A DNA stretch of 62,218 bases, filler included, from Hausera hauseri (taxonomy: Eukaryota): NCBI GenBank assembly GCA_046269625.1. It is 11 parts of 11 records of this genome, joined end to end, with 100 filler letters (N's around TTAATTAATTAA, not from the genome) between each part and the next. Parts side by side here need not be neighbours in the genome. Positions count along the whole stretch, not along the records: positions 13,086 to 17,618 come from JBJURY010538564.1; 10 more parts are not named here. One strand, given 5' to 3'. The notes beneath the pieces are model-generated. The model did not search any database and was not told where the DNA came from. It saw only the letters and a program-made list of their open reading frames with translations. Each line of letters opens with the position of its first letter. Position 1 is the stretch's first letter. Positions 1,848-55,700 of the stretch are shown here, in pieces. The translations under genes were made by a program, and so were the position numbers.

Positions 1848-2615
1848 TTGAATAACGTAATTTTCAACGACACAATTTCGATGCTAAAGGCTGAAAACAA
1901 ACTTAACGTTATGCTTGACGAATTAAATCTCAATGATAAGGAGAACGTTAATAGCGATATTCAAATGACTCAAATTTCAAATGAAACAAATGCCGTACAA
2001 ACCAACATAGACGTTTTTTTGGATTTAATGAACGAACATATACCGACCGAATTTTCTTCGGATGATGTCATTGGTCTTATAAAATACTTAAACAATGTCT
2101 GTCTACAGATGCAAACACGACCTGTTGAACTTAACAACACATGGGATGAAACAGACCATACTGACTCGTCTTTTCATTTTGAATTATTGCGTTTATATGA
2201 TGAATTGAACAGTGTTTTAGTACAGTATGAAAGATATGATAGAACGTTCGCCAGTTTAGCTAATAAAGCGGAAAAGAATCATGACATTGAAGAAATGTCT
2301 AATGTTAACCATACGGATAATTATGCTGCTCGAAATAAAGCATTGCTTAACATTTGGGGCAAAATGACACCATTGGAAAAGATTTCTATTGTGACTGCTC
2401 GACACATAAAAACCTATCCCCATTTTCCACAACGCAACAAGATACTGACAATCGTGGATAATCCAGTACAGGGCAAGGTACGATTCATCTTTGTGTATTG
2501 TTCTATCGGCGATTTTTTTTTCTATTTTTTATCCACGATATATTTTATCTACTTTTCCCTTATTACCTTGCCCATTATTTTGCCGGCACAATGTTACCTT
2601 CCCGTGGTTTTGTAA
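1848..2615 (+). pseudogene. ORF containing a TOM1/GGA-family GAT-domain fragment (~1983-2241) joined to unrelated sequence
   Basis: VQTNIDVFLDLMNEHIPTEFSSDDVIGLIKYLNNVCLQMQTR...ELLRLYDELNSVLVQYERYDR matches the TOM1 GAT pattern (L..L...C..MQ.R...ELL..ND.LN.V...YER); no VHS domain visible. Confidence 0.65.
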
Positions 2616-3691
2616 GTAGGGAAATATCTCAATCTTATTTACCTAGACACAACAGTGGTTTCTGATTCACTATATTTATATAAGCATTTAGCCCATACCA
2701 TCCGTTGTAAGATATCCAACTACGTGTTCACGACCTTTCTTAGATCATTTTTTAAAACAATATTCCGATCCCTAAGATTCGTCGAAAACAAACCGATTAT
2801 AAACTTCCTTAACTATTCCGTAAAAATTAGGAATTTAATTGTTACAAACAGGCACATCAAAATTATATTTAAAAATAACCCGTCGAATAGTACGCAATTT
2901 AGTGGAGTATTTAGTTTAACTTTCCGAGATTTTGTGAGTGATTTGATAAACATTACATCATGGGGGAATTCGGATTATTCAGAGATGGTATTCGTCATTT
3001 TATATTGGTCCACTTGAGCAGCTTTACCTTTTCTCTTCATTTATGATCCAGCCTGTTTGTGGTCGTCTCAAGTATTTGACCTACCACCTTTATCCAGTGA
3101 AACCATCTTTGGGTAATGTCTATTGCTATTATTCTGACAGGATTCCTGCCACTTCTGGAATTTTAAATAATTTCAGCCAAACATTTCCTTTTAATCCTGA
3201 AATGATAAATTTCGTCTATTCTATTCAACAGTTGTTGCACTTTACTCACAGTCCACGACATGCTTTTTCGAGATACCTCGCACTCGCAAGAATTTATGAA
3301 CTTCATGACGGCAACATAGAAATGAAAGAAGTGGTACAGGCATCTCATTCTCTTGAGTTGCAGACAAATCATGACATGATAAACCAATCAACCTTCTCTA
3401 CTACATCAATGAGTCCCACGCCATGGTGTGTTTCGTCACCACAACAACCACTTGAGTTTATGCCAACTATCTCTCTTTTACTCTTCCAACAACCACCATT
3501 TACTAACACATAGAATGACAACTTCGATTGACGCATCATACCTACACAACTACGTACTACACGCCATCAACATTTCTGATTTTTATCTAACATACAATAA
3601 TATACCAATAATTAACACCAACCTCTGTAACCTTTCTGTATCTTCAACACACTGCATCATTATTCACATACACATTCGCATACGTGGTGTA

Positions 3692-4786
3692 ATGGAATCA
3701 TCACCTACCATTAACACTACTGACCGAAATACCTCCAAAATATCACATTTGGCTTTCAACCAAAAATCTTCGATTGTTACCACGCCATATTCTTTCAGTA
3801 GTTATGCTTCTACAATCTCGCCAGTCAAACACACTTCTCAGTGCACAGAATATTTTATTGACCACGAACAGTCTAACAAAACGTGGCTTAGCTTCCACCA
3901 ACTCTGGTTGCAATCAAACAATATCACTGATCCGCTAACCAAGGCCCATAACCTGCTTTGTCTTCTTCTAACAACGGTAAAAACGGTAATTCATGATTTG
4001 CTCGATATCTTCCAGAAACCTGATCCATATACGCATCTTTACAACGCAGTTTTGAAACTTACCGAACCATCTATGGACTCAATAATTTACCGTTTCTTCA
4101 ACGACAATGCAATGGGGGAGCAGAAACAATATGATTTTCTTAGAACGTCACTCGTGCAACTCCAAACACTTGGCGTAACGAAACAACATAACGCCGATCT
4201 TTTGCGACGTTACTTCCTAAATGCATTGTCCATACAAATTAGGGCCTTGCTTACTGTCGTTGAAGAATCGACAACATTGGATAAATTAGCCAAACTGGCG
4301 GATAAAACATATGAAATTATGAACATACACACTCAACCAGTCATTTCTGCAACAGTTTCTACCAAAAATGTTTCACTTGAATAGCAGTTAAACGAATTAC
4401 GCGTCGAAAATGCAGCACTCCACCACACCATCAACTTTATCAATGATAAATTGAATAATCTTTCTTTAGAGCGTCGTAATGTGCCTCCATCTAATCGAAC
4501 ACGTTCTCCTGCTAGAAGTCGAACACCGTCACCTACGAGGTCTCTCGTATGCTATTACCACACCAAATTTAGTAACAACGCAAATAAGTGTTGCTTAGGG
4601 TGTAAATATTATTCGCCAAATCTAGATTCAAGTAATATAATTTGCGTCTATCATTCAAAATTCGGTCCTAATGCTAGGAGTTGTATTACTGGCTGTACAT
4701 ACAAAACTAACAAAAACTATTCCATCGACAGACGTACCAACATCTCTAATAGCAGCCGTTCTAGTTCACCAATCCAAAAAAACTGA
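3692..4786 (+). pseudogene. gag: gag of CsRn1-type element, premature TAG at 4382-4384, two CHCC fingers
   Basis: ORFs 3428-4384 and 4451-4786 are in the same frame; CYYHTKFSNNANKCCLGC and CVYHSKFGPNARSCITGC fit Cx2Hx9Cx3C. Confidence 0.88.
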
Positions 4787-7687
4787 TGTCGCAGCCAGTA
4801 TCCTCGGCAGATACTGGCAAATGTAACCTATCTAATTCCTTTAGCCAACACGTTTCATTTGCCGTTTTCACATTAAAAGCTACTATCTCCAATTTTAACA
4901 TCCAGTCCATAGATTTTCTCATTGACACTGGTGCAGCGATATCACTGCTTCCATTTACCTTTCTGGTTCAACATGCTCCATCTAAACTGAAACCTTTATA
5001 CACTGCATCTGGTCAAGCTCTTCGTGTCGCCGGAACCTGCAAACTTTCTTTCACTTTACAAAATTTTTCCTCGCCATTTCATTGGACATTTACAGTCGCT
5101 AACGTCCGGACTGCAATACTTGGCTCAGATTTCCTTTCACATTACAATTTACTAGTTGATTGTAAATGACTCTGTTTGAAAGCAAATACATCTGAAAACC
5201 TTAATACAAAAATAGACAGCATTACAACGACAACACAGTCCACATTAAATAAACCATCTATTTTAAAACACTCGGTACTTCGTTCTAATCCCAATAACAA
5301 TATGGTATTTTCTGTAAAAATACTGAACACTAACATTTACTCAAACATGGTTCCGGACCAGACCATCTTACTTCAGGCCCAACTTGATTTTTCTTCAACA
5401 ACTAATCATCATATATCAAGTACTTCTATCAATCTCGGTTCATCATCAGTTACAACATTCCAACAACTACCGACAAGTTTACAACAATTCTTTCATACCT
5501 CTTGTCCTCGGATACTTCAGAAAGATAGGAATTTCACTTCAGTAAATAGCATTTACCACCATATAAATACAACACATCAAAGGCCAATAAGACAAAAGGT
5601 CCGTCCATTGTCACCGCGACGAAGACAGGCAGTAGAAGCTGAATTTATGGAACTTGAACAATCAGGTATCGTCCGCAGATCTAAATCACCATGGTCTTCG
5701 CCTCTTCACGTCGTACAAAAAAAGATGGATCTTTCCAACCATGCGGCGATTACCGCCAACCTAATACGTTAACAACAATGGACGCATACCCACTACCATT
5801 AATTATGGACATATTACATCAACTTAATACTTTCTCAGTTTATTCGACAATCGATTTAGCTAAGGCTTACCATCAAATACCTGTCGCACCGGAAGACATC
5901 GAAAAACAGCAGTCACCACGCCTTTTGGACTTTACGAGTATTTATATATGCCTTTCGGTCTCCAGAATGCAGCGCAGACGTTTCAAAGACACATTGATTC
6001 AATACTTTCAGACTTCACTTTTGCGCATCCCTACATTGACGATATCTTGGTTGCCTCCTCATCAGTTAAACAACACAAAGAACATCTACGATCCATCTTC
6101 AAACGCCTTAACCAGTTCAATCTACAAATCAATTTTTGCGAAATGCAACTTCTTTAAAAAACGCGTTAATTTCCTCGGACATATTGTCTCAACAGATGGC
6201 CATTCGCCTCAACCTGATTGAGCTGAGACTCTTAAAAATGTTTAACTACCAAAGACAACAACAGAAAAGAGCAATTTCCTAGGTACATTACACTTCGTCC
6301 ACAAATATATTCCGTATTGTTCGGAACTAACGGCACCGTTTGCACACTTAAGTGGAGGAAAGAAACATCAGAAAATCATGTGGACGCCACAGCTGGTCAA
6401 TGATTTCGACAAGTTACGCGAAGGACTAAAGACTGTGGAAATACTGGCATTCCCTAAACCTGACGCTGAGTTAATCTTAACAACAGATGCGTCAAACACC
6501 GCAGTAGGAACTGTACTACACCAATTATACAAAGAAGAAAACCAACCTTTAGAATTTTTCTCCCGCAAACTCATTGCACCTGAAACAAGATATTCCACGT
6601 TTGATCGAGAACTATTGACAACCGTTCTCGCCTTAAAGCACTTTTCACATCTACTCGTCGCTCGTCATTTCACTCTGCAAACTGACCACAATCCTTTACT
6701 TAACATCATGGCCATGAAACACCCCTCCACACGCCAAGAACGGCAAATATCATACTTATCGACGTTTAATTTTGATATTAAACATATTAATGGAGTTAAC
6801 AATTTAGTCGCTGATTTTTTATCTAGGTTAGTTAGTTCTATTAATTTTTCTCCAATTTTTACTGAAGAACAACTCCAACAAAACCAACCACTTCCAGACA
6901 TGCTTAAGTCTTTCAAATCTTGCACAATCGTTGACGGCGTGGCTTTGGACACCTCCAAATTGGGTCATTCAGTAATCATTTTAGCACCTCCATTGCAAAG
7001 ACAAGCCTTTCATCACGTGCATTCATTACACCATCCTGGTGCTAAAGCCACTTTTTGTCTCCTCCATTGACAAGTCCTATGGCCGTCGATGCGTTCTGAC
7101 GTGCAGGCATGGATTAAGGAGTGTGTGGCATGCCAAAAATACAAAACAACTAAGCATTTAATCAACCACTATTCCACTTTCCCTGCACATCGCGTTTCAA
7201 GTCCGTGCATATCGACATTGTTGGCCCTCTTCCTCCAGACAGCAGTCATAAATTTATCCTCACCATGATAGACCGTTCCTCGCGATGGCCAGAAGCCATC
7301 TCTCTGAGGAGTACTAACATCGACACCATTGCTGACGTTTTCATTTGCACATGGATTAGCAGGTTTGGATCACCCGTTTTATTATCATGGACCAAGGTCC
7401 ACAATTTGAATCCAACCTGTTCAAATCTATTGTTAACCGATTGGGGATCCACCACATTCATACTACGCCTTATTATCCCCAATCAAACGGCCTCCTAGAA
7501 CGCTTCCACCGCACACTGAAAACGTCACTACGCATTCTCGCAGAGTCCAACAGAAGTTGGACCAATCTTCTTCCGTTCGTCCTGCTCGGTTGGTGAAACA
7601 CTCCGTCCACTTCCATAGGATGTTCGCCTACCAAAGCCCTATTTGGAACACCTGTTTGCTCCTTGTTCGAATTAACCGCACTAGATA
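4786..7687 (+). pseudogene. pol: pol (PR-RT-RNase H-IN) in -1 frame relative to gag, several stops and frameshifts
   Basis: Domain motifs spread over ORFs 4786-5169, 5176-5772, 5691-6221, 5948-6157, 6378-7070, 7205-7498, 7387-7596. Confidence 0.92.
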
Positions 7688-7844: not shown

Positions 7845-10800
7845 ATAATGAATTTAGGGGATCCAAACCTGATGAACCAAGTGCGCATAAAAACATCGGC
7901 TTTTGTGTCCGTGTTAGTACTCCGTAGAGGGACGGCTTTTGGCCATCGTGAGGAATGATCCATCATGGTTGAAATGAACTGATGACCGTTGTCAGTGGGA
8001 ATTGGGCCGATAAGATCAATATGTACGGACTCGAAACGCGATGTACAAGGGCAATGATACAGTGGTTGCTTCAAATGCTTGATGGTTTTAAATTTTTGGC
8101 AGGTTACACATGCCTTAACTTACGTTTGCACATCAGAAAGCATAGTCGGTCATATTACTTGCCGGTGAAGTAAACGAAAAGTCGCCTTAGCACCAGGATG
8201 GTGTAGTGAATGTACACTGTTGAATGCCTGTTTTTGCAAAGCAGGAGCCAAGATTATTGTAGCCTGTCCAGGATTAGATGTGTCGAAAGCTATGCCGTCA
8301 ATAATGTTGTTAGATCAAAAAGATTTAAGCATGTCCGTAGGTAGTTGGTTTTCTTGCAGCTGAGCTTGTGTGAAAATGGGCCGAAATTTAATGAAGCTAA
8401 CAGATATGGAAAGAAAATCAGCGACTAAGTTATTTACATTGTTAATGTGTTTCATCTAAAAACTGAACGTCGACAAGTATGAGATCTGTCGTTCTTGTCG
8501 AGTAGATGGGTGTTTTATTCTCATGACATTTATTAGGGGTTTATGGTCCGTTTGTATGATGAAACGTCGAGCAGTGAGTAAATGTGAGAAGTGTTTTAAG
8601 TCAAGGACTATCGCTAGTAGTTCTAGGTCGAACGTGGAGTATCTGGTTTCAGAGGTGTTAGTTTGCGTGAAAAGAACTCCAGTAACTGATTTTCACCTTC
8701 ATGAATTTGATGCAGTACGGCGCCCACAGCAGTGGTGGAGGCGTCTTTTGTGAGGATTAGCTGTGCATCATGTTTGGGGAAAGCTAATATTTAGACAGTT
8801 TTTAAACCTTATCTTACCTTTTTGAATTTGTTAACTAGTTCAAATGTCCATTGTATTGACTGGTGTTGTTTTTAACTACTGAGATGAGCAAATGGTGCGG
8901 TAAGTTCGGAGCAGTACGGCACATACCTGTGAACGAAGTGCAAAGTGCCCTAAAAGCACCTCATTTCTGTTGTTGTTCGAGGTAGTTGCACGTTTTTGGG
9001 GCTTCAACTCGATTGGGCTGAGGTGAGTGACCTTCAGATGAAGTGATGTGACCACGGAAATTTATACGTTTCTGGAAAAAGTTATATTTGGCAAAATTAA
9101 TCTGCAGGTTATTCTGATATCGGCGTTAAAAGATTGATCTTAGATGTTCTTCATGTTGTTTGGTTGAGAAAAAAACAAATAATATGTCGTCGATGTAGGG
9201 GTGAGCATATGGAAAATCTGAAAGAATAGCAGCGATGTGATGATGAAAGGTCTGCGCCGCGTTCCGTAGGCCGAATGGTATATATAAATATTCGTAAAGG
9301 CCGAAAGGTGTTGTAACGGCGGTGTTTTTGATATCTTCGGGTACCACCGCGATTTGGTGATAAGCCTTAGCCAGGTCAATAGTTGAATAGATTGTGGTGG
9401 AATTGTAACGATATAATGTCTTTTATCAAGGGTAAAGGTACATGTCCATTACAGTCAAAGAGTTTAACTTCAGGTAATCACTACATGGTCGCCACGATCC
9501 ATCCTTTTTTGAACCACATGCAAAGGAAAAGACCACGGAGACTTTGATCGACGTACAATTCCGATACATTCAAGGTCAGCGAAATGGGCTTCGATCGCCT
9601 GTCTGCGTCTGAGCGAAAGTGGTCGTACCTTTTGACAAATGGGCCTTTGGTTTTGCGTAATGATGCGATATAAAGTATTATTTTCTGGTGTGAAAGACCT
9701 ATCTTTCTTAAGTACACGAGCGCATTATATAATAAGGTACTGTTGCAAATTTTTCGGCAATTGTGAAAGATCAGGCGGAATGGTTGTGTCATGAATAGTT
9801 GAAATTTAAAAGGTACTCAGTGGCTTAACATCTTTACGATTTTTAGATAGATTGGATGTGCCGAAAAATGGATAAGAGGTATTGATTCTATCCGATGTGC
9901 GTATTATGTTAAAGAAATCGCACTTGTCATTGTTTAATCTTGTTTTGTTGTCAGCATCGTATTTGATTAATTTACGAAATATATTGTGGTTATTAGAAAT
10001 TGCTGGTTTAATAGTCGGTAATTTCAAAATAGACTTCCTTGGGCCGTTCGTTCGTTTGATGGTTGAGACACTATTCATCAGTTCGGTTTGATTTTTATTA
10101 ATGGTGTTTTTCAAACAACGGTGTTTACAATCCACCAGGAGATTGTAATGCGGCAGAAAATCGGACCCAAGGATAGTCGTTTGGACATTTGCGACTGTAA
10201 ATGTCCAATGAAATTTAGAGGAGAAATTTAGAAAGGTGAAAGAAAGTGTAGAAGTTCCGGAAACATGTAACGGTTGTCCGGAAGCTGTGAAGAGATTTTA
10301 CTTTAGATGTAACGTTGTAGACGGGAAAGGTGAGTGGTAGAAGTGATATTGCTTCAACTGTGTTGATAAGGAAGTTTATATGTTGGGGTCTCGGGGCGAT
10401 GGTAGAAGCTTTCAACGTGAACACAGCGAGAGAAATTTTTCGGCTATTAGCAAGTGGAGAAAAGCCTTCGCCAGTGCGTGCCGAAAGCTCTGTCAGCGAA
10501 ATTAGTTTTTAAAAAAAGGAGAAACAGGGTGGCTGTTAGAAGGCAGGTTTGTGCGTTCGCCATTTGCATGATGAGATTTGTTGTTAAAAGTGCAATCAGA
10601 GATGCATCTGCGTGCATTGTCTGAATTTTGCATGATATATGCAAATGACGTTGTCTGTATGGTATCTTTGATTATAAAATTTGCACCCTAGGTGGCATTT
10701 TTGTGCATTATTATCAAACCTACCGTGGTAATAGCAAATCAGTGATCGTCCGGTTGAGGATGACCCATTACGAGATATGGAACGGTTACGGTCAGGAATG

Positions 10801-11593
10801 AAACCATCCCCCCGTCGAGTCAATGAAATCTCGTTCATTTTATTATTGATATTACTTATTGTTGTTTGTAAGGCCGCATTTTCGGCTCGTAGTTGATTTA
10901 AATGCTATTTGAATGTAGCGTTGTTGGTAGTAACGACTGCAGGAATGGGTGGTTGGGTGTGTACATTCAAAGCCTCGTATGTTTTGTCTGCCATTTCGGC
11001 TAATTTATCAAGCATCATCGGTTCTTCGACGACAGTAAGGACCTATTTTGTATGGGCAGTGCGTTCAGGAAGTAATGTCTCAAAAGATCGGCATTATGTT
11101 GTTTAATGACGCCAAGTGTTTGAAGTTGAACGAGTGAAATTCTAATGAAATTTGACGGTTTTTGCGTCCCCATATCATTGTCGTTGAAAAACCAATGAAC
11201 TATGGAGTCCGTAGATGATTCGGTAAGTTTTAGAACGGCGTTGTAAAGATGGGTGTATGGATCAGGTTGTTGGAAGATGTCTAGCAAATCATGAATGGAC
11301 GTTTTAACTGTAGTCGGTAAAAGACAACGTAGGTTATGAGCTTTGGCTAGAGAATCAGTAATACCATTAGACTGCAGCCAAAGTTTGTGAAAACTAAGCC
11401 AGGTTGTGCTGGACTTTTCATGATCGATAAAATATTCTGTGCGCTGGGAAGAAGTGTATTTGGCTGGCGGAACGGAAGGTGTATAAGTGGTGAAAGTAGA
11501 TGGTGTGGTGACAGTCGACATGTGGTGAAAAGCAAAATGTGATGGTTTAGAGGTAGTCTTGTCAGTGGTGTCAATGGTGGGTGAAGAGTCCAT
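7845..11593 (-). mobile_element. CsRn1-type Ty3/Gypsy copy 2 (heavily decayed, truncated inside integrase)
   Basis: Gag MDSSPTIDTT...LWLQSNGITD, CYYHGRFDNNAQKCHLGC; [24 protein letters not shown]; IN VHIDLIGPIP; colinear with copy 1. Confidence 0.93.
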
Positions 11594-11849
11594 GCCACAA
11601 CGTATGCGCAAATGTACATGGATAACAAGATGTGAGGTTGAAGGAGATAAAAAATTGTAGACATTGGTATTAGCGAGTGGTAGATTATTAAGAGTTAAGT
11701 AAAAGTCTGAAAGAGCAGTAAAATGTACATATTTGTGTAAGACAGTGAGTCTATATTGTATGTTATATTGTGCGTCAGTATTTGAGAGTTATTTAGTAAA
11801 AAGTAAAGCGAAAGAGGTGTCACAGACCCTATTGAGTGATGTTCTAACA

Positions 11850-12583
11850 ACGAAGACACTGACGCAATTCTGTAACAGCGAATGTTAATTAACTGCCTTT
11901 CATGTTTTCGAGGTACGAATTGTATTAGTGCCGATTTTCCGCAACCTGGAGGGTTAGAGAGAAGCTCATTGTAGACGTTTGGATCAGTTAATGAGTCGAA
12001 TAGGGCTATAACTGTCTCGTTGCCTACCACTTCACATTCTCTATCGATGTCATCACAACATAACCAAGAATTAATAGCATTATGTTTGTGAACGTTTAAA
12101 ATGTTCAGCAAACATTCTTTATTTAAAGAATGACATTCGACTGAACTCTGTATGAATTTATACAGACTTTCAACGTAACCCATTTCATAGCCAGGAAAAT
12201 AGTCGGATATTTCCTCGATTCCAAATTAAATTTCAAAACTGTCGCAATAAACAAAGTAGATAAGTTGAAATGGGACAGTAAGTTTCCATACTTCTCTGAT
12301 AACGTTTCGACATTTTGCCAGAAGTTATTATTACTGAATTGTTGGATAAAATAATGTCTAACTTCAACGAATTCATAGTCGGGTTTTCGGCAAACCATTT
12401 CACTAACTTCGATTTACCACATTGAGGATGACCAGACCTTTCTTGGGTTTCAGAAACTATTTCAAGCTGAATCAATCTGGCAGCTAGATGTAATACCGAT
12501 GGTAGTAAAACATTTATTAAGTCGGTATCTACCATTTGGAGTAAAGGTGATATTGTTCCGAGTAGCAGACCGATGACATGCAT
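11850..12583 (-). pseudogene. Fragments of a multi-AAA P-loop ATPase, possibly midasin-like
   Basis: Two Walker A motifs in neighbouring broken ORFs: SGHPQCGKSKLVKWFA and LLSNPPGCGKSALIQF; family assignment is tentative. Confidence 0.4.
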
Positions 12584-13085: not shown

Positions 13086-13330
13086 CCCGGATCCCACGCG
13101 TGGGACCCCTCCACGTGGAGGAATGAGATGTGGGTAGAGTGATTCTACTGGCAGCGACCCGACTGCAAACGTCCCTCGCGTGGGGGGGCGACTGTCGGAT
13201 GCCTGGATCCCTCGCGTGGGGGCCGTGGCGACGAGGGACCCGACTGTGGAATACCTGGAGCCCTGGTGGAGGGCGTGACCTCCGACTGCAAAAATACCTG
13301 GCCCTCTCGTGGGGTGGGGGGGCGAAGGAA
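13086..13330. repeat. GC-rich, palindrome-rich repeat region (resembles viral homologous-repeat regions)
   Basis: Perfect 14-bp palindromes TCCCACGCGTGGGA (13092-13105) and CCTCCACGTGGAGG (13108-13121); recurring CCCTCGCGTGGGG and CGACTG(CAAA) units; CGACTGCAAAAATAC-TGG shared with 15868. Confidence 0.75.
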
Positions 13331-13377
13331 ATAAAGTCATAAATATTCTATTATATAACATATATTTNNNNNNNNNN

Positions 13378-13403
<26 letters not shown>

Positions 13404-13448
<45 letters not shown>

Positions 13449-13458
13449 GCTATATAAG
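13404..13458 (+). promoter_or_regulatory. poly(dT) tract plus TATA box (TATATAAG) upstream of the 584-aa ORF
   Basis: T42 at 13404-13445, TATATAAG at 13451-13458, ATG at 13530; same layout upstream of the RNR gene. Confidence 0.6.
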
Positions 13459-13529
13459 GCGGTCCCTTCCCTCATTCCCTCCGGACCTTTGGACGATCAA
13501 CACCAAGGCTCTCTCGTATTTTTTCAAAG

Positions 13530-15284
13530 ATGTCAAAGCATTCGCGGGTAATTTCAACAATGAGATGCAAGTTGATCAGTTATCAAAGAAGAGTGCGCTT
13601 ATGCCAAACTCGAGTAACGTGCCCTCGATGTGACCACATTTTGTTGCCTTCGCAATTTGTAGACCATCTCTTGGATGAGCACGATATTCAAATTAAAAAT
13701 GCATGTCCGTGGTGTTTGGGTCATCATACATGGAAATCTAGAGAAAAACATCTTCACGAGGATCATTTGTCGCTTTGTTTTAAATTGTTTATCGATGCTT
13801 ATCGGGTATCGATACCACTCGGAGAAGAGGTACCAGTCAGAGAAGAGATACCATGCAATCGCGGCCAACCCATCTTTGACATGACTCCCATGTGCCCAGA
13901 GAGGGATTTTTTCGGCCATCGGAAATTGACCCACCTCTGTCCGGAAGCGTACGATCGATTCGGTGGTAGCAGCGACGACGACACGGAATACATGTTCCTC
14001 GGCCACGTGGGACTCGCCGCTCACTACGTGAAAATGTACTCGGAGGAACCCTCCTCCTCCTCCACCGAATGGTTCCACGTCATGGTCCGCGCCGAGACTT
14101 TCGACAATTTCGTGTCCGCTTTTCGACACTACGACGGCCAGGCGACCCTCTTACCGTTTTCCTGTTGGTGCGACGGCGGAAGGAAGAATCGGAAACCCGC
14201 GGAACACAGGCACATGATCATCGTGGCCGACGACGGAAAGGATTTCATGAAGCGGTGTTGGAATAAAATCAAAAATAAATTTGGGAAATGCAGACGCATC
14301 CAATCCTTCATGCACCTGATCAACACGATCGGTTACGTGAGCGGTCGCCGATCTTGCTGCCAGTTTACCTTCGAAGGCCGCAGGTCGTCCGACAACCATT
14401 ACTACATATTCTGCTCCTTGCCCAAATCGTTTAAGAAATGCTTGGCCCTCTGCTACCCCGACGGTTTGAAGGCGGTCTTCACCCAAGAAAAGGGAAGTGT
14501 TTCCATGGCAGACGTTCCGCACGCCGTCAGGGTCCACGAGCAGTGGAAAATTCCGGTGGGCGATCTGCTCCGCGACGAAGACGAGAGGAATATCGTTTTG
14601 CCCCTGCAGAAGCACTGGAGACCGTCGGCGATCGTCGAGTACGATCCCAAATTAAAGGACCGAACCTTTTTACACTTGATGAACGGTAAAGTCTGGTTGC
14701 TGGAGAAAGATCCGTCCCTCGAAGCCTTGGACGAGAGCGAGTGGGTCGAGGAACAGGCCAAGTCGGGCAACCGATTCTATTCCATCGTCGAGAACGAATG
14801 GTGGACGCCCACCAAAAACCAGCAAAAGTGCCTCAACGACATCCAATCCCTCCGGGATCGTGCCAGGGTACTGGAATGTCGGCTCAGCGTCCAATCGAGA
14901 GAGGCTCGACACCACGAGAAAGCGAATCGAGATTTGAGAAAGAGGGAACGGCAATATCGGGAAGAAATCGACAGATGTCGTGTGGAAATCGCGGAATTGA
15001 AAGTGGAAAACGACAGATGTCGTGTGGAAAACACGGAAAACGCCAGATGTCGTGTGGAAATCGCGGAATTGAAATTGGAAAACGACAGATGTCGTGCGGA
15101 AAACGCGGAATTGAAAGTGGAAAACGACAGATGTCGTGTGGAAAACGCGGAATTGAAATTGGAAAACGACAGATGTCGCGTAGAAATTGCTCGTCTAAAG
15201 GTTGAGCAGAGGGAAAAACGACTCGTCGAGGAAAATGCTCGGCTCAATAACCTCTTGTGGATAAAGAGGGCGCGACGAGAATGA
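13530..15284 (+). CDS. 584-aa intact, intron-less protein: C2H2 and C2HC zinc fingers, putative HUH-endonuclease-like core, C-terminal coiled-coil repeats
   Basis: CPRC-x11-HLLDEH, CPWC...HLSLC; WFHVMV / EHRHMIIV / HLINTIGYVS arranged like rolling-circle motifs I-III; 14-aa repeat ENDRCRVE(I/N)AELK(V/L); ORF is solid, HUH call is inference. Confidence 0.75.
   Translation: MSKHSRVISTMRCKLISYQRRVRLCQTRVTCPRCDHILLPSQFVDHLLDEHDIQIKNACPWCLGHHTWKSREKHLHEDHLSLCFKLFIDAYRVSIPLGEEVPVREEIPCNRGQPIFDMTPMCPERDFFGHRKLTHLCPEAYDRFGGSSDDDTEYMFLGHVGLAAHYVKMYSEEPSSSSTEWFHVMVRAETFDNFVSAFRHYDGQATLLPFSCWCDGGRKNRKPAEHRHMIIVADDGKDFMKRCWNKIKNKFGKCRRIQSFMHLINTIGYVSGRRSCCQFTFEGRRSSDNHYYIFCSLPKSFKKCLALCYPDGLKAVFTQEKGSVSMADVPHAVRVHEQWKIPVGDLLRDEDERNIVLPLQKHWRPSAIVEYDPKLKDRTFLHLMNGKVWLLEKDPSLEALDESEWVEEQAKSGNRFYSIVENEWWTPTKNQQKCLNDIQSLRDRARVLECRLSVQSREARHHEKANRDLRKRERQYREEIDRCRVEIAELKVENDRCRVENTENARCRVEIAELKLENDRCRAENAELKVENDRCRVENAELKLENDRCRVEIARLKVEQREKRLVEENARLNNLLWIKRARRE
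14964..15200 (+). repeat. Coding tandem repeat, 42-bp unit (two heptads), about 5-6 copies
   Basis: Repeated GAAAACGACAGATGTCGTGTGGAAA(A/T)CGCGGAATTGAAA(G/T)TG, one unit shortened in frame. Confidence 0.95.
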
Positions 15285-15294
15285 GATGTTGGTA

Positions 15295-15308
15295 TAGAGT
15301 GACTCTAC
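15295..15308. terminator. Conserved palindrome (G)TAGAGT-G-ACTCTAC just after an ORF stop; other copies at 13134-13148 and 16381-16395
   Basis: Three copies, each 5-10 nt downstream of a TGA (13124-26, 15282-84, 16373-75); whether it is a terminator, origin or element end is unknown. Confidence 0.5.
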
Positions 15309-15867
15309 TAATTACGTGGCTTAAAAAAAAAATTTTAAATAATAATTTTTTAAATAATAATATTTAAATTTTTCTTTTTTAAAATGTTGATTTCCTTTCG
15401 GACCTTTGGACGATCAACGCCCACCAGGATCTCCAGTATTATTTTCATTTCTTTTTTTTACGAATGCAAAGATACAAATATACGGCAGCGTGGGCGCAGG
15501 ATGCAAAGCTAGGATCTCCCACCCCTCGCTCGCCGAGACGCACCGCCCGGCCTGGTCGCCGGAGCCTCGAGCAAAAGAAAATGGATCCCCTCCCCCCGAG
15601 GATTGAGATTTGGATGCCGAGGACTTGGAAGACCCCCCCCCCGATTGAGATTTAGATGCCGAGAACTTGGACGTGAATTTCCCCACCTCAGATCCCCGGC
15701 TGACGCGGTGGTGGGAGGCGCAAGGAGGAGAGGAAACTCTCGAAGCCACCGTCCCCGGCGATCGCCGTCGCAGGTTTGAGGAGAGGGAGCCGCCATCCAA
15801 ATTCCAGAAATGACCAGCGAGGATGATGAAGCAGAGTGCCTCCGTCGGTCGGGGGGGTAGTAGCAGC

Positions 15868-16196
15868 CGACTGCAAAAATACTTGGAGCGCCGGACCCCT
15901 TGTGAATAAAAAATAAAATAAAAAACGGGGAGTAGGGGAATGCCCACAATCGGTGGGGGTTGTAGCACGTCCGGTACCGCAATCTCTTCCTGCCCACAAA
16001 CTTTTGCGGTACCAACGCGGTCACTGTGACAGTCGACTGCAAAATACTTGGAGCGCCGGACCCCTTGTGAAATAAAAAAATAAAAAAAACAGGGAGTAGG
16101 GAAATGCCTACAATCGGTGGGGGGTTGTAGCATGTCCGGTACCGCAATCTCTTCCTGCCTACAAACTTTGCGGTAGCAACGCGGTCACTGTGACAG
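15868..16196. repeat. Direct tandem duplication, 166-bp unit x2
   Basis: Units start at 15868 and 16034 with CGACTGCAAAA(A)TACTTGGAGCGCCGGACCCCTTGTGAA and end GCGGTCACTGTGACAG. Confidence 0.95.
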
Positions 16197-16571
16197 AGGT
16201 CCTCGTCCGGAAAAAACTACGAGCTCGTCGACGACGAAACAATAAACACCACAAGACCCGATATGAAAAGGAACCCAACCCAGAATCTGGCCGAACATTT
16301 GGATTAAAATTAAATTATGACCCAACCCTGAATCTAAAGGGAATTTATAAAAAAGATGTGGGTAATGTCGGGTGAGGGTGGTAGAGTGACTCTACTGATC
16401 GAATATTTGGATTTAAAATTAAATTATATGAAAATGGTGGTNNNNNNNNNNNNNNNNNNNNNNNNNNNNNNNNNNNNNNNNNNNNNNNNNNNNNNNNNNN
16501 NNNNNNNNNNNNNNNNNNNNNNNNNNNNNNNNNNNNNNNNNNNNNNNNNNNNNNNNNNNNNNNNNNNNNNN

Positions 16572-17522
16572 AAATTTATGGTCATCTTTTTTAGACATGA
16601 CACCGCATTTTTGGTATTCTCCCACTTTTTTCTCAAAAAAGTTTGTTTTGCCTTCGAGACTTATATGTTCCATGAAATCAAAAGGGTTGTCCACATCAAA
16701 AAACTTGTCGCAATTTAATTCCACCAGTAACCTGTCGGCTACAAACTGAATGTACCGTTTCATCAATTTGGTGTTCATCCCGATTAGATCCACTGGTAAA
16801 GCTTCGGTGAGAAACTCTTGTTCGATTGCAACCGCGTCCGCTATTATCTGGAGAATTCTTTCTTTGGACGGTTTGTTAACCAAATGGTTGTTAAATATCA
16901 GGCATGCGAAATCACAATGTAAGCCCTCGTCTCTGCTGATCAATTCGTTGCTAAAGGACAGACCAGGCATCAATCCTCGTTTCTTCAACCAGAAAATAGC
17001 CGCGAATGAACCCGAGAAGAAAATTCCCTCCACGGCGGCAAAGGCTACCAATCTCTCGCCAAACGAGGCATCATTGTTAATCCAAGAGAGAGCCCATTCC
17101 GCCTTCTTCTTCACACAAGGTAGGGTCTGGATCGCGTTGAAAAGTTTTTCTTTTTCTTGGCTGTCCCTGATATACGTGTCGATGAGAAGGCTATACATCT
17201 CCGAGTGCACGTTTTCGATAGCTATTTGAAATCCATAAAAACAACGCGCCTCGGAAATTTGAACCTCGGCCGAAAATTTCTCAATCAAGTTTTCATTGAC
17301 GATCCCATCGCTGGCTGCGAAAAATGCCAAGACGTGGGAAATGAAATGCTTTTCCCCAACTGAAAGATTTTCCCAGTCACTTAAATCTTTGGATAAATCT
17401 ACCTCTTCGGCGGTCCAAAAGGAGGCCTCGGCTTTTTTATACATTTGCCAGATGTCTGGATACTCGATCGGAAATATTACAAATCTATGAGGATTTCTAC
17501 GCAGCAGTGGTTCCTCGTTCAT
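16572..17522 (-). CDS. RRM2: Class Ia ribonucleotide reductase small subunit (R2), intron-less, no N-terminal extension; last few codons fall in the N gap 16442-16571
   Basis: [16 protein letters not shown]...[34 protein letters not shown] (radical Tyr), [30 protein letters not shown]; all di-iron ligands present. Confidence 0.97.
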
Positions 17523-17551
17523 TCTTAAATAAATTCAAAGTATCTTTGGGG

Positions 17552-17560
17552 CTTATATAA

Positions 17561-17618
<58 letters not shown>
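17552..17618 (-). promoter_or_regulatory. poly(dT) tract plus TATATAAG box upstream of RNR R2
   Basis: A52 at 17567-17618 (+ strand), CTTATATA at 17552-17559, about 30 nt upstream of ATG 17522. Confidence 0.6.
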
Positions 17619-18293: not shown

Positions 18294-21000
18294 CAGGGGT
18301 GGGCAAACTTTTTGACTCGTGGGCCACAGAGGGTTCTAAAATTTGACAGAAGGGCCAGACCAGGAGCAGATGGATGGAGTGTTTTGGTAATTCATCTCAT
18401 TAGAGAAAAAAATAACATATACTGTATGTAGAAAACTTGCTTTAATTTCAATAGAAAATTAACAGAAGCATTACAACAAAATATCTCTTCCAAGTCCCAC
18501 AGAATTTCTTACTGAAATGACTCTTAAAATACTGAAAATTCAATTAACAAAATACAGCTTTTTAAAAGTACTAACAGTTACCATATTGAAGCATTTAAAG
18601 TTTTGATATCCTTCAGGACATTATCATCACTCTCCTCCTGAACATTTCAGAAATGGATGGAGATGCAGATCATCGGAACAGTGACAGCATGCCAGTATGT
18701 GGCCATGTTATATATATCTGGTGCGCATTGTTTATATAAAGGCAGTGCACCTGCACACCACTTATGTGCGCACCTTAACAGAAATGACATGTAACATGTA
18801 AATCCATTTTTTACAGCAGAGGATGTAACACGTAGAGCCGAGAAACTTACTTTTGATTTCAGTGGGAACAGTGTTGTTGGTGTCCCTTTTTAAGCAGCCC
18901 ATCAAAGTCTGGAGTCAGTTTTGTCATGGCGATTCTCAGGATGGATCCGAGGTGTTGGTCAGTCAACTTGAATCTGTGACTGGCTTTGTTGAAGTTCATG
19001 ACGCTGAACGTCTGTTCACACACGTAGGTTGAGCCGAACAACGCAGCATCTTCTGTGCCATCCTCCGGAGGTTTGGAAACACCGCTTCATTAAGTGAAGC
19101 ATAAAAGTCATTCAGTTTAAGAGACTTGAACTTCTCTTTTAGGACAGCGTCAGCCTGAAGGTCGATCAGTTCTAGCTGTAGTGCTTCTGGTGCTGTTTCG
19201 GGGTCTTGTGACAGGGGACAGGCCACCAACTGAAGTGACTTGTTGATTTTCTCAAAATCAACAAAGCGACGGCAGAATTCATTGTTGAGTGCATCCAGTG
19301 ACTCGCTGTATTTCTTCACTTTTGCGCCAGCCTCCTCTTTCAGTGTGGCTAGTGTGGGGAAATGAGTGAATGACACATTTAAGATTTGCTTGGAAAATAA
19401 AGCCAGCTTGGCTTTGAAGGCTTTCACACTTGTGTACAAGTCATGCACAAATCGATCCTTCCCCTGTATGTTCACGTTCAGCTCATTCATGTGTGAAAAT
19501 GTATCCACAGCAAACGCAAAGTCACAAAGCCAGTTCTTGTTGCTCAGCTCGGGAAATTTGTCGGCCTTCCCCAGTAGCTCCAAAAATGCACCTATCTCCT
19601 CTTTGAGGTCCCACACTCGTTGAAACACTTTGCCCAAGCTTAACCAGCGGACACTGGAGTGATAAAGTAGGTCCTGGTGCTCTGCATCAGTTTCCTCCAA
19701 GAACGCAATGAACTGACGGTGCTGAAGTCCCCTTGCACGTATAAAGTTGACAAGTTTTACGACAGGATTCCAAACATGATTCGGCTGTAATACAGATTGA
19801 CACAGAGATTCCTAGTGGATGATGCAATGAAGGAAAATAACATCCTGGTCAGGATTTTCTTCTTTCACTTTATCCTGGATTGTCCTCAGCAGGCCAACAT
19901 TTTTCCCTGTTAAATTAGGAGATCCATCTGTGGTGATGTTGATAAGTTTACTCCAAGGCAGCTTCATATTTTCTATGATAGCAGACACCCGGTTATACAA
20001 GTCCTCCCCCCGTGTTTTTCCTTTCATAGACTCCAACGTCAAAAACTCCTCTGTTATTTCAAAAGCATCGTTAATTCCTCGGATAAAAATGAGGAGCTGA
20101 GCAGTTGAATTTACATTGTTGCTTTCATTCAGCGCTAATGTATAAAACGTGAACGACTCTGCCGTTTTCTTTAAGTTGCTAGTTAGATCTTCGTCTATCA
20201 GTTCCACACGGCGAGTCACTGTCTTGCTTGATAGACTGATTTTCTCAAACTTGTCTTTGGCCTCTGGACACAAGACACCTGCTGTCTCCACCATACATTC
20301 CTTTAAAAACTCACCTTCAGACAGAGGCTTGCTGGCCTTTGCTATTTGAATGATAGCATAAAACTCGCCTTGGTACTTGACTCTTGGATGGCACTTTGAT
20401 GATGAAATAAATTGTGTTGAGCTTGTAAATTAGCTACCAACCTCTGAGCAGTAGCTTCCTGTTCTTTCTCAGACTGCTTGCTAGCATAGTTGGCATGTTT
20501 TGTAGTAAAGTGACAGCTGATGTTATACTCTTTAAAAACCGCCACAGTCTCTTTGCATATCAGGCATACAGCAGTTGATCTGTGTTCGGTAAAAAAAATA
20601 TTTAGTTGTCCACTTCTTATTAAACACTCGACATTCTCTGTCCACTTTTCTTTTTTTTAGCTCCGCTCATCATTACAGAAGGGTTGAGCTGTCAAAGAGG
20701 GAAAATGCTGAGTAATGATGCATTCATAGGGTGTCAGAATGATCGTAAAAATCACTTTCCCACTGGGAAAAACAACTCGGCAAGCCGAATCTTCCGACAC
20801 CACTTGAATGCAGCATAAGACAGTGCACCTCAACAAAGGTCAGTGTATCAGAGTGTGCCATCTATCGAGAAACACCACAATTGCAGAGAAAATAAAACAT
20901 TAACAAGGTTTACCATTATAATTGATTCTGATTCGGGGGACCGGATTAAAACGCTTAACGGGCCGCATACGGCCCCAGGGCCGCAGTTTGCCCATCCCTG
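18294..21000 (-). mobile_element. Full-length hAT DNA transposon, Buster/Charlie (GTF2IRD2/SPIN-like) group, 2707 bp
   Basis: TIRs CAGGGGTGGGCAAACT (18294) and AGTTTGCCCATCCCTG (ends 21000); exact 8-bp TSD ATCTAGGG at 18286-18293 and 21001-21008 with central TA. Confidence 0.97.
18859..20673 (-). pseudogene. hAT transposase (BED finger, DDE core, dimerisation domain), disrupted
   Basis: CLICKETVAVFKEYNISCHFTTKH; LALNES (catalytic D to N); TTDGSPNLTG; HCIIH*; VRWLSLG; FGSTYVCEQTFS; stops at 20342 and 19812, frameshifts near 20650 and 19040. Confidence 0.93.
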
Positions 21001-54722: not shown

Positions 54723-55230
54723 TCAATCAACTATAGCTTTCAACATCGAAAGAATCAATAGACGCAGTTCAATAATTATGTCATTTTCCTCAAACTCTAA
54801 CACAACAAATATTTTGACTGCCGCATTACGAACTAGTATACTTTGTTTTCGTCCATTCCCAGTCATCTCATTCAAGCACTTGCCCAATGTCGTTCCAATA
54901 ACCTGTAGATTATTGTGTCCACTCAATGGAAGCATTGTTGGAACAGATATAAACAACTGAAGTCCACAGACCTTCAAATTTTCATCCTGACCACATGTAC
55001 AAACATTAAAAGCAAAGTTTAATATTTCGGGCCAAAGAAAATTTCTTTCATCATCAAATTGTCGTTTCGTTATTTCTGATGTTACGTCTATGAACTTTCT
55101 AGTGACAACTAGGTTATTGGACGTACAATCAAGTAATAAGTTTTGGAATAAATCCAAAATTGTATTGACATCGACAAGTGTTACTGTCAGTATTTTTGGT
55201 AACTCGTCGGAAAACGATTTAATAATCACA
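54723..55230 (-). pseudogene. IPO5: Importin-5 (karyopherin beta-3 family) HEAT-repeat fragment
   Basis: RKFIDVTSEITKRQFDDERNFLWPEILNFAF...GLQLFISVP...LQVIGTTLGKCL parallels IPO5 [32 protein letters not shown]...ALHIFWNFP...LDVIKRMLVQCM. Confidence 0.65.
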
Positions 55231-55289
55231 TCGTGTTCGGATAAGTCATAAGTAAGAACTTTAACTTTATACTTACGATTTCCGGACGT

Positions 55290-55700
55290 ATGTGGAATCC
55301 AACCTGACGTGTATCGTGGATTGCAAACGATGATATCGTAAGCACCGACATTCTCTAAATAAATGTGTTGATCGAACAGAAAATTTATAGCTTTGTCAAC
55401 GTTAATTAAACAATGAATGCGCATTTTGTCCCTTGTCGGCTTTAAGAGTTTTTTGCAAACTAATATATTTAACAATTTAATCGACCTCTTACCGTCACAT
55501 AAATCCAAATAGAGAGCGTCAACAGCTTCTGGTACTTTAACCTAATGGGAATACATCCACTTCGTAAATGTTTTTCTTTGAACCATTTCACGTTCCTCGG
55601 GTAGTGCTTTAGTTCGAGACTTTTCGTACGATTTGGCAATGTCATCTCCTTCATTGCAAGAAAAAATCCCATTGGCATTGTCATTTGCGTCCCATTTCAT
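55290..55700 (-). pseudogene. Beta-spectrin N-terminal CH1 domain fragment with in-frame TAG at 55542-55544
   Basis: YEKSRTKALPEEREMVQRKTFTKWMYSH*...LYLDLCDGKRSIKLLNIL...KPTRDKMRIHCLINVDKAINFLFDQHIYLENVGAYDI. Confidence 0.9.

What the first reader, a model, noticed from the sequence alone, without database searches (positions are those of the whole stretch)
13121..16398. Conserved palindrome GTAGAGT-G-ACTCTAC placed after TGA codons three times
Seen: copies at 13134-13148 (one mismatch), 15295-15308 and 16381-16395, each 5-10 nt after a TGA. The first two share GAATGAGATGT upstream. Each ends in C-T-R-R (CTGG, CTAA, CTGA). The third also lies just downstream of the convergent RNR gene. Inference: a transcript-end hairpin signal (as in the Mimivirus hairpin rule), a dimeric protein site, or the cleavage/termination end for the adjacent HUH-like protein (hairpin plus CTRR recalls Helitron 3' ends, although the spacing is atypical).
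Basis: partly seen in the sequence, partly recalled or inferred. Interest (0 to 1): 0.72.

Follow-up and report, generated by a model that had tools for sequence, protein, structure and literature searches.

The report
Spider-virus palindrome beside HUH-fold gene
A short mirror-image DNA signal repeats three times around an undescribed gene with a DNA-nicking-type fold, in what looks like a piece of a large spider DNA virus; it is most likely one of the repeated origin/enhancer sites such viruses carry, but it could mark the ends of a new kind of self-copying element that lives inside these viruses.

Summary
The three copies are real and beyond chance (0 of 1000 shuffles), all on one 4.5-kb contig (13086-17618) of a concatenated window. 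The 'after stop codons' reading fails: only copy 2's TGA ends a gene, the TGA is part of the repeat, the hairpins are weak, and Helitron geometry and helicase are absent. The contig looks like a fragment of a spider naldavirus (Lefavirales). The 584-aa ORF has 102 homologues, including spider proteins, one on a scaffold the length of the published viral insertion AvEVE2. Its predicted fold matches several tsetse hytrosavirus proteins (E down to 3e-19) and, weakly, Rep HUH nucleases. The intronless RR2 groups with N-truncated, long-branch copies nested among spider RRM2. In a public run, other contigs show copy 1 inside head-to-tail repeats, as in homologous regions (hrs). Best reading (0.5): an hr-like double-stranded protein-binding site. 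Live rival (0.25): the direct-repeat ends of a helicase-less, Replitron-like HUH module (2,160-bp unit plus a 1,087-bp non-coding unit). No binding, nicking or mobility was shown.

The parts
13086..17618 (.). The contig holding the finding (one of 11 joined by N44-TTAATTAATTAA-N44 linkers); virus-like: gene-dense, intronless, CpG not depleted (o/e 1.0-1.3)
13086..13330 (.). Left repeat region: palindromes TCCCACGCGTGGGA (13092-13105) and CCTCCACGTGGAGG (13108-13121, holds CACGTG), C(A/T)CGCGTGG-type repeats, CCGACTGCAAA motifs (13159, 13282); seen as head-to-tail units in other contigs of run X1
   Evidence: (table 5c)
13121..13150 (+). Copy 1: GAATGAGATGTGG + palindrome 13134-13148 (one mismatch, G-T wobble on + strand) + T; no gene upstream
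13368..13445 (.). 10-N scaffold gap followed by A27/T41; the link of copy 1 to the ORF rests on this join
13451..13501 (+). TATATAAG (TATA overlapping ATAAG) and the leader CGGACCTTTGGACGATCAAC (13482-13501), repeated exactly at 15399-15418
13530..15284 (+). 584-aa ORF: N-terminal zinc-finger-like region, HUH-like core (H183, C212-x-C214, H226-R-H228, Y269, C277, H290), C-terminal coiled coil from a 42-nt repeat; no helicase; multigene family shared with spider genomes and hytrosaviruses
15279..15310 (+). Copy 2: GAATGAGATGTTGGT + palindrome 15294-15308 + T; its TGA (15282-15284) is the ORF's stop
15399..15655 (+). Second copy of the leader (15399-15418) after an AT-rich stretch, followed by a 63-codon basic, repetitive frame (15464-15655); no homologue was sought
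15864..16196 (+). Two 165-bp tandem repeats starting with CCGACTGCAAAAATAC, the motif shared with the left repeat region
16350..16397 (+). Copy 3: degenerate (A)GATGTGGGTA-type repeats + perfect palindrome 16381-16395 + T, lying between two copies of a 28-nt AT-rich repeat (16292-16318, 16400-16427); no gene ends at its TGA
16442..16571 (.). 130-N gap holding the RR2 stop
16572..17559 (-). Intronless ribonucleotide reductase small subunit (ATG at 17522, TATATAAG at 17559-17552), lacking the 30-81-residue N-terminal extension of most homologues in the tree; 82-84% identical to its best named hits, all spider RRM2

Best explanation
The palindrome is the conserved core of an hr-like (homologous-region-like) repeat of an unnamed spider naldavirus (order Lefavirales), here probably endogenous. 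It is read as double-stranded DNA: two GTAGAGT half-sites around one base, bound by a symmetric protein pair, and it serves as replication origin, enhancer and recombination site as baculovirus and filamentovirus hrs do. The TGA before it belongs to the repeat; the HUH-fold ORF simply runs into copy 2 and takes its stop there. The neighbouring HUH-fold protein is a candidate binder or nicker but need not be. Shown: copies, context, family links. Inferred: viral origin of the contig, protein binding, origin/enhancer function.
For: Virus context: homologue P0040 (Araneus ventricosus GBN19754.1) lies on a 79,615-bp contig, the exact length of AvEVE2, BGPR01006520.1, which has 20 baculovirus-core homologues (PMC12219104 Table 1). 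This link is by length only. Two independent models (window protein, P0040) both return GpSGHV and MdSGHV proteins as best viral matches. RR2 sits in an 11-row clade (97/84) of long-branch rows, 9 of them (the window's included) N-truncated, inside a 20-row spider-containing clade (98/93); AvEVE3 also encodes an RR2 (supplement row, E 5.5e-7). Both genes have TATATAAG. hr-like anatomy: contigs of run X1 return from 13190 to 13121 and from 13222 to 13118, i.e. tandem units of about 78 and 114 nt that contain the palindrome (table 5c, one entry each). Copies sit among AT-rich tracts, direct repeats, other palindromes and a CACGTG box, features listed for baculovirus hrs (PMC4535591 passages), and hrs are virus-specific in sequence (PMC11013392, PMC12548425 passages). 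Sequence rather than pairing is conserved: 14 of 15 positions in each pair with copy 3 while 3' flanks are unrelated. DNA hairpins are weak (-1.6 to -3.4 kcal/mol; 5 of 6 strands with z above -2).
Against: In the window each copy is single and 1-2 kb apart, not a cluster of 3-8 palindromes, and 15 bp is shorter than the 24-28-bp baculovirus palindromes (single-palindrome hrs are mentioned there for CpGV). Hytrosaviruses, which hold the closest structural relatives of the ORF, are reported to lack hrs. No viral core gene (pif, lef) is on the contig. The motif was not found in viral context in IMG/VR: 32 loci, single hits or a coding repeat; 0 for the extended pattern. The copies bracket the HUH-fold ORF exactly and in direct orientation, which this reading leaves as coincidence. 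The RR2 grouping may be long-branch attraction.
Confidence: 0.5

Rival explanations
1. The roughly 30-nt repeat is the nick/termination site of a helicase-less HUH (Y1 Rep-like) self-copying module. Copy 1 to copy 2 (2,160 bp: repeats, AT tract, promoter, HUH gene) is an autonomous unit. Copy 2 to copy 3 (1,087 bp, same leader and CCGACTGC repeats, no HUH gene) is a non-autonomous unit. The protein nicks one copy, viral or host machinery displaces a strand up to the next copy, and the released circle re-inserts. This would expand the gene family inside naldavirus genomes and their spider insertions: a Replitron-like parasite of large DNA viruses.
For: Direct repeats flank the gene on both sides, with a sharp 3' homology edge right after ...CTACT. 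Replitrons are defined by short terminal direct repeats, a Y1 Rep and no helicase (PMC10288648 part 1 and passages). Model residues 176-295 align over most of the nanovirus Rep nuclease (6h8o, Z 6.3, rmsd 3.2, 90 residues), pMV158 RepB and circovirus Reps. Named rows among ranks 13-47 of the viral search are small-virus Reps. Tyr269 occurs across both main clades of the family tree. Multi-copy: 309 contigs of run X1 laid on the contig at 99+/95-99/90-95/under 90% = 76/93/94/46; the 40 best-supported variant sites all lie in 13174-15544, none in RR2 (164 more not shown). Of 30 ORF variants tested, 10 are synonymous, 0 nonsense, none at the 9 conserved residues (p 0.075 against neutral). Several paralogues per spider species and 6 GpSGHV-labelled entries at E <= 0.001. 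The shared leader is followed by other sequence in other contigs (loose ends at 13515, 13524).
Against: The HUH call is weak on its own: Z under 8 and tied with ferredoxin-like folds; no Foldseek PDB match at E <= 0.001. The middle residue is Arg, not hydrophobic (103 of 114); YxxK is present in 8 of 77 and Tyr is missing in 28 of 77 long homologues, so many members cannot be canonical Y1 nucleases. One GpSGHV match is labelled 'virion protein'. None of the 6 listed loose ends (78 not shown) or 8 listed joints falls at a palindrome's 3' edge. Copy 1 sits inside short tandem units elsewhere. Its link to the ORF crosses a scaffold gap. No empty site was seen.
Confidence: 0.25
2. No function of its own: the palindrome is part of a repeat unit copied by local duplication and recombination in a repeat-rich intergenic region, and it looks conserved because the copies are recent or palindromes seed rearrangements.
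For: The contig is full of local duplications (165-bp, 42-bp, 28-bp, shared leader), and run X1 shows many rearranged versions (joints). Only three copies, one contig, one organism.
Against: Flanks 3' of the motif are unrelated while 14 of 15 core bases are kept in each pair with copy 3; the changes in the core fall at one position each; the symmetry itself is retained.
Confidence: 0.13
3. RNA hairpin that marks transcript 3' ends for cleavage and polyadenylation (Mimivirus-type rule), serving both convergent genes.
For: Copy 2 lies 9-10 nt after the ORF stop, with no AATAAA between the stop and 15905. Copy 1's mismatch is a tolerated G-U on the + strand and folds at z -2.99 as RNA.
Against: Only 1 of 3 copies follows a gene. 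Copies 2 and 3 fold no better than shuffles on the + strand (z 0.32, -0.30). The Mimivirus signal is not sequence-conserved and is tied to cytoplasmic transcription; naldaviruses replicate in the nucleus.
Confidence: 0.07
4. Helitron 3' end (hairpin plus CTRR) of a captured or non-autonomous Helitron.
For: A CTRR follows each copy.
Against: Helraiser has a 19-bp palindrome 11 nt before CTAG, a 5'-TC end and a RepHel protein. Here the C of CTRR is the palindrome's own last base, and no helicase or Helitron Rep family matches.
Confidence: 0.02

Closest known systems
Homologous regions (hrs) of baculoviruses, Filamentoviridae and ant labial-gland viruses
   Same: Repeat with an imperfect palindrome core, dispersed and tandem copies, AT-rich tracts, CANNTG box, virus-specific sequence, assembly breaks beside it
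   Different: Shorter (15 bp, odd dyad), single copies here, and placed at both ends of an HUH-fold gene; function untested
Spider endogenous Lefavirales (nrEVEs, Hu et al. 2025, PMC12219104)
   Same: The gene family occurs in Araneus, Argiope and Oedothorax, one member on a contig of AvEVE2's length; RR2 is present in AvEVE3
   Different: The main text has 0 occurrences of 'palindrom', 'HUH' or 'homologous region'; no core gene on this contig; class unknown
Uncharacterised multigene family of Glossina and Musca hytrosaviruses (A0A0Y0KBN0, B0YLT5, A0A0Y0JE62, A0A0Y0JA16, B0YLU6, B2YG19)
   Same: Predicted fold over most of the length (TMq up to 0.54-0.61; E to 3e-19) from two independent models
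   Different: 10-17% identity; their catalytic residues and genomic neighbourhoods could not be examined
Replitrons (Craig 2023, PMC10288648)
   Same: Helicase-less HUH protein, single candidate Tyr, short direct repeats at both ends, palindrome, autonomous plus shorter derivative
   Different: Reported from algae, plants and protists; here arthropod-virus context, HRH instead of HUH/HUQ, N-terminal zinc fingers, extra Cys/His set, coiled coil; no mobility shown; relatedness of the proteins not tested
Helitrons / Mimivirus hairpin rule
   Same: Palindrome near a gene end; CTRR letters
   Different: Geometry, helicase, sequence conservation and compartment do not fit

Membership tests
Naldavirus homologous region (hr) | Repeated unit with an (imperfect) palindrome core | tested here: met
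   3 copies of a 15-bp dyad with a shared 5' flank
Naldavirus homologous region (hr) | Tandem clusters at several dispersed genome sites | tested here: inconclusive
   Tandem units holding the palindrome in run X1 joints; single copies in the window; no whole genome
Naldavirus homologous region (hr) | Located in a naldavirus genome (pif/lef core genes) | tested here: inconclusive
   No core gene on the 4.5-kb contig; indirect links through homologues, fold and RR2 tree
Naldavirus homologous region (hr) | Origin and enhancer activity, binding by a viral transactivator | not testable with these tools
   Needs experiments
Rep-type HUH endonuclease | Rep nuclease fold | tested here: inconclusive
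   Best VIA match is a nanovirus Rep, Z 6.3, rmsd 3.2, 90 aligned, tied with ferredoxin-like folds
Rep-type HUH endonuclease | His-hydrophobic-His motif on a strand | tested here: inconclusive
   H226 and H228 on strand 226-233, conserved in 74 of 77; the middle residue is Arg, not hydrophobic
Rep-type HUH endonuclease | Catalytic Tyr in YxxK on a helix | tested here: inconclusive
   Y269 at the end of helix 260-269; Tyr in 49 of 77, Lys at +3 in 8 of 77; the window protein reads YVSG
Replitron | Short direct repeats at or near both ends | tested here: met
   Copies 1 and 2 flank the gene in direct orientation, 2,160 bp apart, across a 10-N gap
Replitron | No fused helicase | tested here: met
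   No helicase family among Pfam matches of 53 members
Replitron | Transposase related to Replitron Rep family | not tested
   No Replitron profile or sequence was available
Replitron | Interspersed copies with definable ends or empty sites | tested here: inconclusive
   Many variant contigs, but no listed joint or loose end at the motif edge; most rows not shown
Helitron | RepHel protein with SF1 helicase | tested here: not met
Helitron | Hairpin about 11 nt upstream of terminal CTRR | tested here: not met
   CTRR overlaps the palindrome
Mimivirus hairpin rule | Hairpin at gene 3' ends, not conserved in sequence | tested here: not met
   1 of 3 copies at a gene end; sequence conserved; weak folding
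Mimivirus hairpin rule | Poly(A) site inside the hairpin | not testable with these tools
   No RNA holder listed

The most novel reading that the evidence does not exclude
Naldaviruses (spider Lefavirales, hytrosaviruses) carry a previously unrecognised, helicase-less HUH rolling-circle element. A zinc-finger/HRH/Tyr protein nicks a palindromic direct repeat at each end of its own module, copying it and non-autonomous derivatives within viral genomes and their host insertions. This would explain the unexplained multigene family in GpSGHV and could tie hr-like repeats to a dedicated initiator: a fifth independent group of HUH transposons, the first living in large animal DNA viruses.
Probability: 0.25. 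Interest if true: 0.85.

Novelty: new variant of a known kind. Interest (0 to 1): 0.55.

Why it matters
Spider naldaviruses are known only from core-gene fossils; no cis-acting signal is described for them in the text I read. This gives a candidate origin/enhancer motif. It also assigns a probable HUH-nuclease fold to a large uncharacterised gene family shared by spider insertions and tsetse and housefly hytrosaviruses. If the protein nicks the palindrome, it would be either a new group of HUH mobile elements inside large DNA viruses or a handle on how these viruses start replication, recombine and integrate into host chromosomes. Either way the claim is directly testable with one protein domain and a 40-nt oligonucleotide.

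Tried and rejected
No whole genome is held, so the genome-wide motif scan could not be run. IMG/VR scan for the 15-mer: 32 loci, 31 with a single site in unrelated-looking context and one (L010) with 6 sites inside a coding repeat (RVTL); treated as chance. Extended motif: 0 hits. Relatives of the ORF in viral contigs: 0 confirmed in 3 scans. Metagenomes: 0 and 1 short locus, L033, which lacks the motif in about 450 nt upstream and ends inside the gene, so flanks of homologues could not be compared. Pfam, NCBIfam, PHROGs and PDB sequence searches gave only zinc-finger and coiled-coil hints. ESM Atlas: no usable hit; for P0046 only hits under 0.9, one named 'rep protein family' at 0.78, a lead only. 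The VIA search of the P0040 model was filled by its coiled coil. Homodimer prediction: no verdict, not counted. Rfam: 2 matches far below gathering scores, rejected. Sequencing runs: one holder, no RNA holder listed; it may be the window's own source. Summed contig depth in X1 is higher over the ORF (about 110-340) than over RR2 (13-40) and only 9.75 at 15278. The tool warns this is no copy number and cannot rank parts, so it is used neither for amplification nor against shared ends. Earlier findings: 4 look-ups, nothing. Literature: no paper linking HUH to hytrosaviruses or spider insertions in searches 46 (20 of 146 listed, none with all three terms), 47, 48, 85, 99; the UniProt accessions are in no paper. 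The GpSGHV annotation paper was not held, so the positions of its paralogues relative to its direct repeats are unknown. In PMC12219104, Supplementary Data 10, the supplementary PDFs and one other file could not be read; its 11 spider-specific conserved proteins (Fig. 5e) might touch this family. A slow tree did not finish and was replaced by FastTree.
Full report
OBSERVATION. The window is a concatenation of 11 contigs; the finding lies on contig 13086-17618. The three copies are at 13134-13148, 15294-15308 and 16381-16395, all in one orientation, with no other copy in the window at up to 3 mismatches. At 1 mismatch or fewer, 0.01 matches are expected and 0 of 100 shuffles reach the count. 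Asking, after the fact, for any dispersed family of three 7-1-7 near-palindromes gave 0 of 1000 shuffles, and the other 10 contigs have none. The TGA triplets lie 7, 9-10 and 5 nt upstream, but only copy 2's ends a gene. Copy 1's closes 12 codons without Met and copy 3's closes 91 codons without Met. The 5' flank is part of the repeat (GAATGAGATGT in copies 1 and 2, degenerate GATGTGGGTA units in copy 3); the 3' flanks are unrelated after ...CTACT. Copy 1 is linked to the ORF across a 10-N gap and copy 3 to RR2 across a 130-N gap.

ANATOMY. In order: left repeat region with further palindromes and CCGACTGCAAA motifs; copy 1; AT tract; TATATAAG; 20-nt leader; 584-aa ORF; copy 2; AT tract; the same leader; a 63-codon frame; two 165-bp repeats beginning with the same CCGACTGC motif; copy 3 between two 28-nt repeats; gap; convergent RR2 with its own TATATAAG. 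The spacing is 2,160 and 1,087 bp. As single strands the copies fold weakly in DNA (-1.6 to -3.4 kcal/mol); in RNA copy 1 (+) reaches z -2.99 and copy 3 (-) z -2.25, while copies 2 and 3 on the + strand fold no better than shuffles. A dyad with a one-base centre and conserved sequence fits a duplex protein site better than a hairpin (inference).

THE PROTEIN. No curated family matches above cut-off. A full HMMER search finds 102 relatives at E <= 0.001. Of 30 looked up, 4 clusters carry names, all spider hypothetical proteins (Araneus, Argiope, Oedothorax twice), several with paralogues. Conserved columns in an alignment of 126 rows: H183 96 of 104 filled, C212 104 of 110, C214 112 of 113, H226 106 of 114, R227 103 of 114, H228 107 of 113, Y269 70 of 107, C277 97 of 102, H290 91 of 103. 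Among the 77 rows of 380 aa or more (shorter rows dropped), HxH is in 74, Tyr in 49, Lys at +3 in 8, and Tyr is spread over both main clades. The model (pLDDT 90) puts HxH on a strand and Tyr at a helix end. Against solved structures the best match is the nanovirus Rep nuclease (Z 6.3, rmsd 3.2, 90 residues), with RepB and circovirus Reps nearby, but ferredoxin-like folds tie and Foldseek finds nothing at E <= 0.001. The HUH fold is therefore likely, not proven. Against viral models, 6 GpSGHV-labelled entries and 1 MdSGHV entry match at E 3e-19 to 2e-6, followed by weaker Rep matches; a separate model of the Araneus homologue gives the same top set. I did not check whether all GpSGHV entries are separate genes of one isolate.

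VIRAL CONTEXT. Hu et al. 2025 (PMC12219104; I read parts 1-3 of 8, term passages, supplement 5 part 1, supplement 7 and searches in the others) describe endogenous Lefavirales across spiders. Their AvEVE2 scaffold is 79,615 bp with 20 core-gene homologues, the same length as the contig carrying homologue GBN19754.1; the accession itself is not in the supplements searched, so the link is by length. AvEVE3 has an RR2 match. The window's RR2 is intronless, lacks the N-terminal extension, is 82-84% identical to its best named hits, which are spider RRM2, and falls in a supported clade of long-branch rows, mostly truncated, nested among spider sequences (46 rows chosen from the 120 listed; long-branch attraction is possible). 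I conclude (inference, about 0.8) that the contig is a fragment of a spider naldavirus. Whether it is integrated is not shown; the many divergent variants favour it.

OTHER COPIES. One public run holds the stretch and may be the window's own source. 309 of its contigs lie on the contig, at 99+/95-99/90-95/under 90% = 76/93/94/46. The 40 best-supported variant sites lie between 13174 and 15544 and none in RR2 (164 not shown). Joints 13190 to 13121 and 13222 to 13118 show head-to-tail units of about 78 and 114 nt that contain copy 1. No listed joint or loose end falls at a palindrome's 3' edge (6 of 84 loose ends shown). Of 33 listed ORF sites I tested 30 (three in one codon were left out): 10 synonymous, 20 missense, 0 nonsense, p 0.075, so selection on the copies is only hinted.

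MECHANISM. Best (0.5): an hr-like duplex site. Passages read on baculovirus hrs (PMC4535591), filamentoviruses (PMC11013392; PMC5381508) and ant viruses (PMC12548425) describe virus-specific repeats with imperfect palindromes, AT tracts and CANNTG boxes acting as origins, enhancers and recombination sites; the local anatomy and the tandem units match. Against it: the site is short, single in the window, no core gene is present, and hytrosaviruses are reported to lack hrs, though they have direct repeats (PMC4553466 passage). Rival (0.25): ends of a helicase-less HUH module. Replitrons (PMC10288648, part 1 of 7 and passages) have a Y1 Rep, no helicase and short terminal direct repeats. Here direct repeats bracket the gene and a second, non-coding unit shares the leader and repeats. 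Against it: non-canonical motifs, Tyr loss in over a third of homologues, and no empty site seen. Lesser rivals: neutral duplication (0.13), transcript-end hairpin (0.07; PMC4402537 passages), Helitron end (0.02; PMC4778049 passages). PMC6251100 (passages) added nothing on this family; one IE1 preprint was seen as outline and abstract only and not used.

NOVELTY AND VERDICT. Palindromic repeats in naldaviruses are a known kind. This motif, its placement around an HUH-fold gene, and the HUH reading of a family spanning spider insertions and hytrosaviruses were not found in searches, nor in the three most relevant papers ('HUH' 0 times). Unreadable supplements of PMC12219104 and subscription papers on GpSGHV could bear on this. 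The evidence comes from one contig and one run; flanks of homologues could not be obtained. Rated a new variant of a known kind, interest 0.55, with a 0.25 chance of a new group of HUH mobile elements inside large DNA viruses (0.85 if true).

Noticed in passing
window 1-62218: The window is 11 unrelated contigs of 4-7.7 kb joined by N44-TTAATTAATTAA-N44 linkers; CpG o/e ranges from 0.15 to 1.5 between contigs, so they may come from more than one organism.
   Followed up: partly
window 13482-13501 and 15399-15418: An exact 20-nt leader repeat after AT-rich tracts; in run X1 it is followed by other sequences in other contigs, suggesting a shared promoter cassette used by several genes.
   Followed up: partly
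window 16572-17522 (-): RR2 groups with about 10 unnamed, mostly N-truncated, long-branch sequences nested among spider RRM2: a possible virus-captured clade of a spider gene.
   Followed up: partly
fold search of the 584-aa ORF: A 355-aa uncharacterised protein labelled Emberiza spodocephala parvoviridae sp. (A0A8A4XEA3) and an unnamed 901-aa protein (A0A0K1Y883) also match at E about 1e-6 to 6e-5; the family may reach parvo-like and other filamentous viruses.
   Followed up: no
window 3043-7070 (+), 9481-11664 (-), 35585-37747 (+), 50301-52119 (-): Frameshifted Ty3/gypsy-type gag/pol fragments; the ORFs at 3515 and 11015 look like two copies of one family.
   Followed up: no
window 18996-20294 (-): Broken hAT/SPIN-like (GTF2IRD2-type, label recalled) transposase on a CpG-depleted contig.
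   Followed up: no
window 1881-2615 (+), 11695-12583 (-), 54723-55508 (-): Intron-poor eukaryotic genes (GAT domain, AAA-like, importin-5-like) that do not look spider-like at a glance; possibly a protist or parasite in the bin.
   Followed up: no
L010 2744-4246 (-): A giant-virus contig encodes a 500-aa repeat protein whose RVTL repeats happen to contain the same palindrome six times; coding coincidence.
   Followed up: yes
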